Positions 13,761 through 15,083 are shown, counted from the first letter of the stretch. The stretch is DNA of 64,000 bases from Polyangia bacterium (GCA_046484285.1 JAWOBP010000156.1:2518-66517), one strand, 5' to 3'. A program made the numbers and translations. The notes: generated by a model from the letters alone, not told the origin.

Positions 13761-15083
13761 TCAACCAGCCAGGGCGGCCAGGGCGTTTCTCGTCTCCTCC
13801 ACGGTGCAGCTCTCGGATCCCTGCGCCAGGAAGCGCTCGATCGCTTCTCTCTTTTCGAGGGCCGCGTCGGTCTCCGGCGAGCTGCCGCGGCGGTAGGCTC
13901 CCATCAGGATCAGGTCCTCGTTCCGGCTCAGGGCCGCCAGCATCCGGCGCAGCGCGGCCGCGTGCGCGAGCTGGACCGCGGGCGCGACCGCCGGCGCCAC
14001 GCGCGACACCGAGCGCAGCAGGTCGATCGCGGGCCAGCGCCCGGCCTCGGCCAGCTTTCGCGAAAGCACCACGTGGCCGTCCAGCAGCGAGCGCGCCTCC
14101 TCGGCGACCGGGTCGTCGGCGCCTTCTCCTCCACCCTCGGTCAGCACCGCGTAGACCGCGGTGATCGATCCTCGCTCGTCGCGACCGGCGCGCTCCAGCA
14201 GCCCCGGCAGGGCGGCGAAGGCCGAGGCGGGGTAGCCCCCGCGCGCCGGGGGCTCGCCCAGCGCCAGCGCGGCGTCCCGGCGGGCGCGCACCACGCGCGT
14301 CAGCGAGTCGACCACGAGCAGCACGTCGTCGCCGCGCTCGCGGAACCACTCGGCGATCGCGGTCGCCGACTCCAGCGCCCTGAACCTGACCAGCGGCGGG
14401 GCGTCGGCCGGCGCGACCACCACCGCGCTGCGCGCCAGGCCCCGGGCGCCCAGTGAGCCGTCAATGAACTCGCGCACCTCGCGGCCGCGCTCGCCGACCA
14501 GGCAGACGACGGCCACGTCGCAGTGGGCCCGCCGCGCCAGCGTACCCAGCAGCGTGGACTTGCCCAGGCCCGGACCCGCGAACAGGCCGACGCGCTGCCC
14601 GATCCCGATCGGCAAACAGCCGTCCAGCGCCCGCAATCCGCTGACGAGCTGAGTATCGATCGGCGGACGCGAGAGCGGATCCGGCGCCGGGCGACGCAGC
14701 GGCCAGGCGCTGACGTCCCGCAGCGATGGACCGCCGTCGCGCGGGCGGCCGAACGGATCGATCGCGCGTCCCAGCAGACCGGCGCCGCAGGGAAGCCGCG
14801 GCTCGACGGCGACCGCGCGGACCTCGTCGCCCGGACCGACGCCGGACGACTCGGAGAACGGCAGCAGCGAGGCGCTCGAACCGCGGCAGACGGCCACCTC
14901 GGCCTCGACCGCCCGGCCGCCGGGGCGCTCGACCAGCACCTGCTCGCCGACCCGGGCGCCGGGGATCTCCGCCTCCAGCACCTGCTCGCCGACAGCGCTC
15001 AGCCGCCCCCGCCGCACCGGCCAGGCGCAGCGAGCCACGCCCTCCAGCAGGACCCGGGCCCGTTCGTCGATCTCGGCGTCCAT
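13761..15083 (-). CDS. FliI/YscN-family (type III secretion / flagellar) ATPase, orphan
   Basis: Walker A GLFAGPGLGKSTLLG; SITAVYAVLTEGGGEGADDPVAEEARSLLDGHVVLSRKLAEAGRWPAIDLLRSVSRV matches the FliI/YscN catalytic core almost residue-for-residue; no other T3SS/flagellar genes in the window. Confidence 0.85.
   Translation of the reverse strand: MDAEIDERARVLLEGVARCAWPVRRGRLSAVGEQVLEAEIPGARVGEQVLVERPGGRAVEAEVAVCRGSSASLLPFSESSGVGPGDEVRAVAVEPRLPCGAGLLGRAIDPFGRPRDGGPSLRDVSAWPLRRPAPDPLSRPPIDTQLVSGLRALDGCLPIGIGQRVGLFAGPGLGKSTLLGTLARRAHCDVAVVCLVGERGREVREFIDGSLGARGLARSAVVVAPADAPPLVRFRALESATAIAEWFRERGDDVLLVVDSLTRVVRARRDAALALGEPPARGGYPASAFAALPGLLERAGRDERGSITAVYAVLTEGGGEGADDPVAEEARSLLDGHVVLSRKLAEAGRWPAIDLLRSVSRVAPAVAPAVQLAHAAALRRMLAALSRNEDLILMGAYRRGSSPETDAALEKREAIERFLAQGSESCTVEETRNALAALAG

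What the first reader, a model, noticed from the sequence alone, without database searches (positions are those of the whole stretch)
13761..15083. Orphan FliI/YscN-family ATPase with no secretion or flagellar partners
Seen: an unmistakable T3SS/flagellar export ATPase core (Walker A GPGLGKSTLLG, catalytic Glu region, C-terminal ...LDGHVVLSRKLAEAGRWPAIDLLRSVSRV). It is monocistronic, flanked divergently by a Ser/Thr kinase and by lpxK on the other strand. Established: FliI/YscN act with FliH/FliJ and an export gate. A solitary copy in a (presumably non-flagellated) organism suggests either a relic or recruitment to a different process.
Basis: partly seen in the sequence, partly recalled or inferred. 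Interest (0 to 1): 0.6.

Follow-up and report, generated by a model that had tools for sequence, protein, structure and literature searches.

The report
Solo type III secretion ATPase gene
This is an intact type III secretion/flagellar-type export ATPase gene that sits alone in a myxobacterial (Polyangia) genome. It is probably not partnerless, because published tables show relatives of this organism keep the rest of the export machine scattered elsewhere in their genomes.

Summary
Window 13761-15083 (-) encodes a 440-aa FliI/YscN-family ATPase with every catalytic motif intact. It is monocistronic, divergent from a Ser/Thr kinase and convergent with lpxK. No other flagellar or T3SS gene was found in the window.

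It belongs to a well-supported, divergent clade of about 60 sequence clusters, mostly from Polyangia and other Myxococcota MAGs. All five members whose context I could see are also solo, each with different neighbours. The probable sister group (57% bootstrap) holds Myxococcus T3SS* SctN and SctL-SctN pairs that also lie far from any export gate.

"No partners" is not supported. A published homolog table for 46 Myxococcota MAGs shows SctV, U, R, S, T, Q, J and L homologs scattered in Polyangia genomes. SctN and SctV copy numbers are equal in 34 of 42 bins.

Most likely (0.55) this is the dispersed ATPase of a scattered or ATPase-less needle-less T3SS-like gate. Recruitment to a new process stays possible (about 0.25). 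Decay is unlikely. The source MAG itself could not be searched. I rate it a new variant of a known kind, of modest interest.

The parts
13761..15083 (-). Gene for a 440-aa FliI/YscN (SctN-type) export ATPase, monocistronic
   Evidence: ORF list; Pfam PF00006 and PF18269; TIGR01026 450.1 bits against a 379.5 cut-off; identical to MFO8073004.1
14556..14576 (-). Walker A / P-loop, GPGLGKS (residues 170-176)
   Evidence: Aligned to GSGVGKS of Salmonella FliI; position
14475..14495 (-). GERGREV motif carrying the catalytic glutamate (residues 197-203)
   Evidence: Identical to the FliI motif in the PDB alignment
14295..14315 (-). Walker B region, VVDSLTR (residues 257-263)
   Evidence: Aligned to IMDSLTR of FliI
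14058..14084 (-). LDGHVVLSR motif with the arginine finger (residues 334-342)
   Evidence: Aligned to LDGHIVLSR of FliI. The role of this Arg in EscN/FliI is from established knowledge, not tested here
13776..13976 (-). C-terminal T3SS ATPase domain (residues 370-436). In known systems it faces the stalk protein and the export gate
   Evidence: PF18269, E = 1.5e-19
15015..15083 (-). N-terminal extension of 23 residues before the beta-barrel, the position where FliI/SctN bind FliH/SctL. The clade shows a loose pattern D-F-x-x-L ... C-x-x-P
   Evidence: Alignment of N-termini; conservation D 70%, F 65%, L 78%, C 53%, P 95% in 60 clade members. The binding role is inferred
15084..15199 (.). 116-bp divergent intergenic region between the ATPase and the kinase
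   Evidence: Sequence. One sigma-70-like site faces the kinase. No sigma-54 -24/-12 match upstream of the ATPase
15200..16732 (+). Context only: Ser/Thr kinase with a C-terminal PEGA domain. Its linkage to the ATPase is not conserved
   Evidence: Pfam Pkinase 1.2e-52, PEGA 7e-06. An adjacent (divergent) kinase is seen only in the window; among relatives only L014 has a kinase nearby, about 1.3 kb away with two genes between
12702..13688 (+). Context only: lpxK, last gene of a + strand run (PilZ - TPR - Cys-rich MopE-like - lpxK), convergent with the ATPase
   Evidence: TIGR00682 149.6 bits against a 91.95 cut-off; overlapping start/stop codons; linkage absent in relatives

Best explanation
The gene encodes a working SctN-type hexameric ATPase. 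It belongs to a Polyangia/Myxococcota-specific paralog clade that is always encoded on its own. Most likely it is the cytoplasmic ATPase of a needle-less, Myxococcus-type T3SS-like export apparatus whose core genes (SctV, U, R, S, T, Q, J, L) are scattered through the genome or sit in a gate cluster that has no ATPase of its own. By analogy with FliI/SctN, it would dock under the SctV ring through a stator (SctL) and a stalk (SctO), and use ATP to release and unfold export substrates. Shown here: family membership, intact catalytic motifs, the solo arrangement across the clade, and a probable sister relation to the Myxo-type SctN group. Inferred: that a gate exists in this particular genome, and that this ATPase serves it.
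For: 1. Family and catalytic integrity.
2. A 100%-bootstrap clade on a long stem. Its sister (57% bootstrap) is a group holding M. xanthus and Stigmatella SctN together with SctL-linked ATPases from Myxococcota MAGs.
3. The clade is old and constrained: 60 clusters, pairwise identity 48-91%, conservation highest in the ATPase domain.
4. None of 18 independent homolog contexts (each +-10 kb where the contig allows) has a gate gene nearby. Ten are solo, counting the window: five in the window's clade and five in the sister group. Eight are SctL(FliH)-SctN pairs. An ATPase unlinked to the gate is therefore the rule in this lineage.
5. Table S5 of PMC11821767 shows gate homologs in nearly all Polyangia MAGs at distant gene numbers. 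In g__Ga0077539 bins (GC 67%) SctN, SctL, SctV, SctU, SctR, SctS/T and SctJ all lie far apart.
6. SctN and SctV copy numbers are equal in 34 of 42 bins, Spearman 0.77, p = 3e-9. At least five bins carry both an SctL-adjacent SctN and a second solo one.
7. ATPase-less gate clusters exist. The M. xanthus T3SS(2) rows MXAN_5643-5654 list no SctN. Metagenomic locus L040 has SctJ-x-Q-R-S-T-U-V with no FliI/SctN hit in 13.5 kb.
8. PMC11509652 reports sctV and sctR as shared by Myxococcia and Polyangia genomes.
Against: The source MAG could not be searched, so a gate in this genome is an extrapolation from other Polyangia MAGs. The published table uses loose BLAST thresholds (at least 25% identity, E <= 1e-5), the MAGs are incomplete, and I transcribed the counts by hand. 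I could not map which SctN homolog in those bins belongs to the window's clade. The clade is clearly diverged: it scores about 100 bits lower on the SctN model than the SctL-linked group (465-479 against 559-597 bits), and it has substitutions at otherwise invariant positions. It has no adjacent SctL. Both features also fit a change of function. Module-based surveys state that T3SS is essentially restricted to Myxococcia. The tree is neighbour-joining with weak backbone support.
Confidence: 0.55

Rival explanations
1. Neofunctionalised stand-alone ATPase. After duplication from the Myxo-type SctN, this paralog lost its link to SctL and the export gate. It now acts in another process, for example as a cytoplasmic unfoldase or chaperone-release motor, or under second-messenger or kinase control.
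For: Long stem branch and 100% clade support. Scores about 100 bits lower on the SctN and FliI models than the SctL-linked relatives. Clade-specific replacements at positions invariant in all other T3SS ATPases, in E. coli FliI numbering G36E, F72C, A278V, E283D, T327A, D334R/G. Never next to SctL in the five contexts seen. Neighbours are often signalling proteins: a Ser/Thr kinase (window), PilZ (L003/L004, and window 9659-10003), a cNMP-binding protein (L001) and an FHA-sigma54 activator (L002). T3SS and flagellar ATPases are cited as c-di-GMP effectors in PMC8316039.
Against: No neighbour is conserved across the clade, so no alternative partner emerges. The N-terminal extension and the C-terminal T3SS domain, the parts that contact stator, stalk and gate in known systems, are retained. 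SctN copy number tracks SctV copy number in Myxococcota MAGs. Signalling genes are very abundant in these genomes, so such neighbours are expected by chance.
Confidence: 0.25
2. Flagellar FliI: a component or leftover of a true flagellar export apparatus in a Polyangia lineage that is, or recently was, flagellated.
For: The best single NCBIfam score is FliI_clade1 (474.1, against 468.4 for SctN). The highest identity to a reference over 295 conserved columns is to Ralstonia FliI (58%). Abby & Rocha's dataset lists a flagellar locus in Anaeromyxobacter, a member of Myxococcota.
Against: In the tree the clade groups with the Myxococcota SctN-type sequences, not with the proteobacterial FliI references. 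The partners of the sister group score as SctL rather than FliH. No flagellar gene was found in 64 kb of window or in about 310 kb of related loci. All FliI equivalog cut-offs are missed by about 145 bits or more.
Confidence: 0.08
3. Decaying relic: a non-functional remnant of a lost secretion system.
For: It is locally orphan, and no partner gene was seen in the window.
Against: The reading frame is intact and full length. All catalytic motifs are conserved. GC3 of 0.84 is like that of its neighbours. The clade has 60 clusters spanning 48-91% identity, with the ATPase domain the most conserved part. Together these indicate long-term purifying selection.
Confidence: 0.03

Closest known systems
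SctN of the Myxococcus xanthus needle-less T3SS* (MXAN_2442) and the 'Myxo' NF-T3SS family of Abby & Rocha 2012
   Same: Same phylum and same protein family. The group containing MXAN SctN is the sister of the window's clade (57% bootstrap). Those systems lack a needle and a secretin and are thought to act in contact-dependent predation.
   Different: MXAN_2442 lies inside a roughly 30-gene cluster next to SctL and SctO. The window gene is solo. Identity over conserved columns is only 51%. The Myxo system was described as restricted to Cystobacterineae/Myxococcia, whereas this gene is from Polyangia.
SctL-SctN two-gene modules of Polyangia and other Myxococcota MAGs (L007, L008, L010, L012, L013, L025, L026)
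   Same: 50-57% identical ATPases from related organisms. They too are unlinked to any gate gene within +-10 kb.
   Different: They keep an adjacent FliH/SctL stator gene and score near the SctN equivalog cut-off (559-597 bits). The window's clade has no adjacent stator and scores 465-479 bits.
Scattered T3SS loci of Chlamydiales
   Same: This is the precedent for a functional NF-T3SS whose core genes are spread over several loci (Abby & Rocha).
   Different: In Chlamydia the genes still sit in a few multi-gene loci. In the Polyangia bins many core genes appear singly. Function in Polyangia is untested.
Retained flagellar T3SS genes of non-flagellated Lysobacter enzymogenes OH11
   Same: A non-flagellated predatory bacterium keeps FliI and export genes, which have taken on other roles such as twitching motility (PMC7277350 and PMC7688988, abstracts).
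   Different: Lysobacter keeps flagellar-type genes; this is a different lineage and a different paralog family. I read only the abstracts.
Salmonella FliI / EPEC EscN (solved structures 2DPY, 5B0O, 6NJO)
   Same: Full-length alignment with E = 2e-99 and 2e-93. The domain order and catalytic residues are identical.
   Different: These are encoded next to FliH/FliJ or EscL/EscO within complete systems. The window protein fails both equivalog cut-offs.

Membership tests
FliI/YscN family ATPase (NCBIfam TIGR01026, subfamily level) | Whole-protein score above the curated cut-off | tested here: met
   450.1 bits against a 379.5 cut-off
FliI/YscN family ATPase (NCBIfam TIGR01026, subfamily level) | RecA-type nucleotide-binding domain plus T3SS-specific C-terminal domain | tested here: met
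   PF00006 8.8e-71 and PF18269 1.5e-19
FliI/YscN family ATPase (NCBIfam TIGR01026, subfamily level) | Walker A Lys, catalytic Glu, Walker B Asp and Arg finger are conserved | tested here: met
   Residue-by-residue alignment to Salmonella FliI; the motifs are conserved across the clade sample
FliI/YscN family ATPase (NCBIfam TIGR01026, subfamily level) | ATP hydrolysis and hexamer formation | not testable with these tools
   Needs biochemistry
SctN, injectisome ATPase (equivalog TIGR02546) | Score above the equivalog cut-off | tested here: not met
   468.4 bits against 604.75. Clade members P0005 and P0018 score 479 and 465
SctN, injectisome ATPase (equivalog TIGR02546) | Encoded with SctL/SctO and the export gate | tested here: not met
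   None in the 64-kb window. None within +-10 kb in the other four clade contexts with Pfam-annotated gene lists
Flagellar FliI (equivalogs TIGR03496/03497/03498) | Score above the equivalog cut-off | tested here: not met
   474.1 against 619.1, 439.3 against 629.8, 417.5 against 587.45
Flagellar FliI (equivalogs TIGR03496/03497/03498) | Flagellar genes (fliH, fliJ, fliF, fliG, flhA/B) in the neighbourhood | tested here: not met
   phmmer with 13 E. coli flagellar proteins finds only FliI in the window
Myxo-type needle-less T3SS (T3SS*/T3SS(2)) ATPase | Phylogenetic affiliation with Myxococcus/Stigmatella SctN | tested here: inconclusive
   Sister to the group that contains them, but at only 57% bootstrap in a neighbour-joining tree of 295 columns
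Myxo-type needle-less T3SS (T3SS*/T3SS(2)) ATPase | SctV/U/R/S/T gate encoded in the same genome | not testable with these tools
Only class-level published data are available
F1/V1 ATP synthase catalytic subunit | Score above the family cut-off | tested here: not met
   Best is 161.7 bits against 554 for F1 alpha and 132.4 against 462.85 for F1 beta. F1 beta serves as a distant outgroup

The most novel reading that the evidence does not exclude
A widespread Polyangia/Myxococcota clade of T3SS-type ATPases has been uncoupled from its SctL stator and from any export gate. It would work as a free-standing rotary-type ATPase in a different process, possibly under kinase or cyclic-nucleotide control. 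That would be a second example, after the Mycoplasma gliding F1-like ATPase, of a rotary ATPase catalytic subunit recruited outside its ancestral machine.
Probability: 0.2. Interest if true: 0.75.

Novelty: new variant of a known kind. Interest (0 to 1): 0.38.

Why it matters
Surveys that score T3SS by cluster or module completeness report Polyangia as lacking the system. Gene-level tables, however, show the core scattered through their genomes.

A conserved, divergent, always-solo ATPase paralog is a handle on that overlooked machinery. It suggests that minimal needle-less T3SS-like exporters, thought to be ancestral to injectisomes and used in bacterial predation, are much more widespread in Myxococcota than stated. 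It also suggests they can function with fully dispersed genes.

If the clade instead proves independent of any gate, it would be a new use of a rotary export ATPase.

Tried and rejected
- **Contig look-up.** An exact-sequence look-up of the window protein's contig failed twice, so the MAG's other genes could not be read.
- **Kinase and lpxK co-occurrence.** Neither neighbour is conserved in any relative, so I rejected a functional link.
- **Sigma-54 promoter.** None was found upstream of the ATPase, despite sigma-54 activators near some homologs.
- **Weak FliH-like hit at window 31780-32463 (+).** It lies in a frame that overlaps the GC3-supported PA-domain gene at 31976-33214. It matches only the low-complexity coiled-coil part of the FliH models, far below their cut-offs. 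I rejected it as an artefact.
- **Accession-block test.** I looked for a second SctN homolog in the same MAG as MFO8073004.1 by comparing NCBI accession numbers. No shared blocks were found.
- **Independent search for a Polyangia SctV.**
  - A GC-biased FHIPEP-motif scan of metagenomes gave 120 loci.
  - Most solitary FHIPEP genes among the ten tested were ordinary FlhA.
  - The two Myxo-type loci, L028 and L040, proved to be from Myxococcia.
  - A representative search seeded with M. xanthus SctV returned distant homologs, but only one of the ten looked up carried an organism name, and it was not Myxococcota.
  - This route therefore neither confirmed nor refuted the published table.
- **Supplement of PMC10196010.** It held no per-gene T3SS data.

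Full report
**1. The observation.**
Window 13761-15083 (- strand) is an intact 440-aa ORF. It is identical to NCBI protein MFO8073004.1, 'MAG: FliI/YscN family ATPase [Polyangia bacterium]', on a 69.5-kb contig. Pfam finds the ATP-synt_ab nucleotide-binding domain (8.8e-71) and the T3SS-specific C-terminal domain (1.5e-19). NCBIfam places it above the FliI/YscN subfamily cut-off (450 against 379.5 bits). It falls well below every FliI and SctN equivalog cut-off: 474 against 619 and 468 against 605.

Against Salmonella FliI (E = 2e-99), Walker A (GPGLGKS), GERGREV, Walker B (VVDSLTR) and the arginine-finger motif (LDGHVVLSR) are all conserved.

The gene is monocistronic. A Ser/Thr kinase with a PEGA domain starts 116 bp upstream on the other strand. 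lpxK ends 72 bp downstream, convergently.

**2. The window holds no partner genes.**
I called about 43 ORFs by third-position GC and scanned them against Pfam. They are sulfatases, TPR proteins, PilZ proteins, an FHA-sigma54 activator, metabolic enzymes and an EF-G paralog. None is a flagellar or T3SS family. phmmer with 13 E. coli flagellar export and basal-body proteins, run against every six-frame ORF of the window, found only the ATPase. It also gave one weak FliH-like match in an overlapping wrong frame, which I dismissed.

**3. Relatives and their contexts.**
The protein search returned close relatives almost only from uncultured Polyangia, 'Deltaproteobacteria' and Myxococcota MAGs and metagenomes. 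I obtained 18 independent genomic contexts, each with +-10 kb where the contig allowed.

- No context has an export-gate, C-ring or basal-body gene.
- Ten are solo. These are the window, L001, L002, L003/L004 and the P0026 contig (63-67% identical), plus L005/L006, L014 and L009 (47-55%).
- Eight are two-gene FliH/SctL-ATPase modules: L007, L008, L010, L012, L013, L025 and L026.
- The flanking genes differ from one context to the next. Neither the kinase nor lpxK recurs.

**4. Phylogeny.**
I built a neighbour-joining tree on 295 conserved columns with 100 bootstraps and F1 beta as outgroup. References came from plasmids and E. coli and from Abby & Rocha's Dataset S1.

- The window protein falls in a 100%-supported clade on a long stem. 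All five members with a known context are solo.
- Its sister (57% bootstrap) is a broad Myxococcota group. That group holds the SctL-linked ATPases, some further solo ones, and M. xanthus and Stigmatella T3SS* SctN.
- Backbone support relative to canonical FliI and SctN is weak (20-41%).
- The SctL-linked group scores best as SctN (559-597 bits, just under the cut-off), and its partners score best as SctL.
- The window's clade scores about 100 bits lower. It carries replacements at positions that are invariant elsewhere.
- The clade comprises about 60 clusters at 90% identity, with pairwise identity of 48-91%. The ATPase domain is its most conserved part. It is therefore old and under purifying selection, not decaying.

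**5. Are there partners elsewhere in the genome?**
I could not read the other contigs of the source MAG. Published data bear on the question.

Abby & Rocha (2012) found the 'Myxo' needle-less T3SS only in Cystobacterineae. A 2026 preprint likewise calls T3SS 'primarily restricted to Myxococcia'. Both use cluster or module criteria.

At gene level the picture differs. Table S5 of PMC11821767 covers 46 Myxococcota MAGs, mostly Polyangia. It lists homologs of SctV, SctU, SctR/S/T, SctQ, SctJ, SctL and SctN in nearly every bin, often at widely separated gene numbers.

- In the g__Ga0077539 bins (GC 67%), SctN, SctL, SctV, SctU, SctR, SctS/T and SctJ are all far apart.
- In the Palsa-1104 bins, an SctL-SctN pair is far from SctV and SctR.
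- Counting from that table, SctN and SctV copy numbers are equal in 34 of 42 bins (22 with one of each, 11 with two, one with three). Spearman correlation is 0.77, p = 3e-9.
- At least five bins carry both an SctL-adjacent SctN and a second solo one, which matches the two clades in my tree.

PMC11509652 independently lists sctV and sctR among the genes common to Myxococcia and Polyangia.

Gate clusters without an ATPase do exist. The M. xanthus T3SS(2) rows (MXAN_5643-5654) contain no SctN. Metagenomic locus L040, from Myxococcia, shows SctJ-x-Q-R-S-T-U-V with no ATPase in 13.5 kb.

**6. Interpretation.**
The best-supported reading (about 0.55) is that the gene is the dispersed ATPase of a scattered or ATPase-less needle-less T3SS-like exporter. 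It would work as FliI/SctN do: a hexamer held under the SctV ring that releases and unfolds substrates. The catalytic competence and the solo arrangement are shown. The existence of a gate in this genome, and the pairing with it, are inferred.

The main rival (about 0.25) is that this divergent paralog has left the export machine for another role. In its favour are the long branch, the lost SctL adjacency and neighbours that are often signalling proteins. Against it are the absence of any conserved alternative partner and the way ATPase copy number tracks gate copy number.

A flagellar origin (about 0.08) and decay (about 0.03) are unlikely.

**7. Limits.**
- The tree is distance-based.
- The published table uses permissive BLAST thresholds on incomplete MAGs, and I transcribed the counts by hand.
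- I could not assign the table's SctN homologs to my clades.
- My own attempt to find Polyangia SctV sequences yielded only Myxococcia or mostly unnamed sequences.

**8. Verdict.**
The 'orphan without partners' interpretation is only partly supported. This is a new variant (a distinct solo paralog clade and a dispersed gene organisation) of a known kind (the T3SS export ATPase). Interest is modest, and would rise if genome-wide searches showed that no gate is present.

Noticed in passing
window 18904-21702 (+) and 21719-22669 (+); repeats at 19002-19179 and 21829-21892: Two adjacent unannotated secreted or lipoprotein-like proteins begin with long (Asp-X)n linkers ([13 protein letters not shown]...), encoded by 6/12/24-bp tandem repeats. 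The 932-aa protein then carries many Trp/Gly/Asp-rich repeats that look like beta-propeller blades. Neither matches Pfam. Homologs of the second protein sit right next to the ATPase homolog in L002.
   Followed up: partly
window 9659-10003 (+) and 40658-41047 (+); L003 9512-9916 / L004 5452-5856: PilZ (c-di-GMP receptor) proteins recur near these ATPases. One is divergently adjacent in L003/L004, and one lies 3.7 kb away in the window. M. xanthus MXAN_5655, a PilZ-domain gene by the deletion list of PMC8316039, is numbered right after the last T3SS(2) gene. PilZ genes are numerous in Myxococcota, so this may be chance.
   Followed up: partly
window 27236-31892 (-), 43016-44410 (+), 21719-22669 (+) compared with L002: There is loose, rearranged synteny with L002 (ATPase 67% identical). 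A sulfatase-HEAT fusion, a TPR protein, an FHA-sigma54 activator and the unannotated secreted protein all lie within 10 kb of the ATPase in L002, but are spread over 30 kb in the window.
   Followed up: partly
L012 8809-9345, L026 8796-9335, L025 8333-9358: In the SctL-SctN modules an unannotated ORF (178-341 aa, no Pfam or NCBIfam match) sits directly upstream of the SctL gene and overlaps or abuts it. It may be a third conserved member of that operon.
   Followed up: no
L013 1-11317: In one MAG the SctL-SctN pair follows rpoB-rpoC and a sigma-70-family gene on the same strand.
   Followed up: no
window 3743-5485 (-), 16790-18316 (-), 28635-31892 (-): The 64-kb window holds three sulfatase-family proteins. 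One of them is fused to HEAT repeats.
   Followed up: no
window 9659-13688 (+): PilZ, a TPR protein, a Cys-rich MopE-motif protein and lpxK lie head-to-tail with touching or overlapping stop and start codons. They look like one operon that ends convergently at the ATPase.
   Followed up: no
L040 5017-13429 (-): A Myxococcia metagenomic contig (GC 74%) carries SctJ-x-SctQ-R-S-T-U-V in the same order as M. xanthus T3SS(2), with no ATPase in the 13.5 kb. Abby & Rocha's text says the 'short' Myxo locus includes the ATPase, whereas the 2024 gene table lists none for MXAN_5643-5654. I did not resolve this discrepancy.
   Followed up: partly
window 38527-38931 (+): A PIN-domain toxin gene. An antitoxin would be expected just upstream, but I did not look at that region. 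A PhdYeFM-PIN pair also occurs in L002.
   Followed up: no
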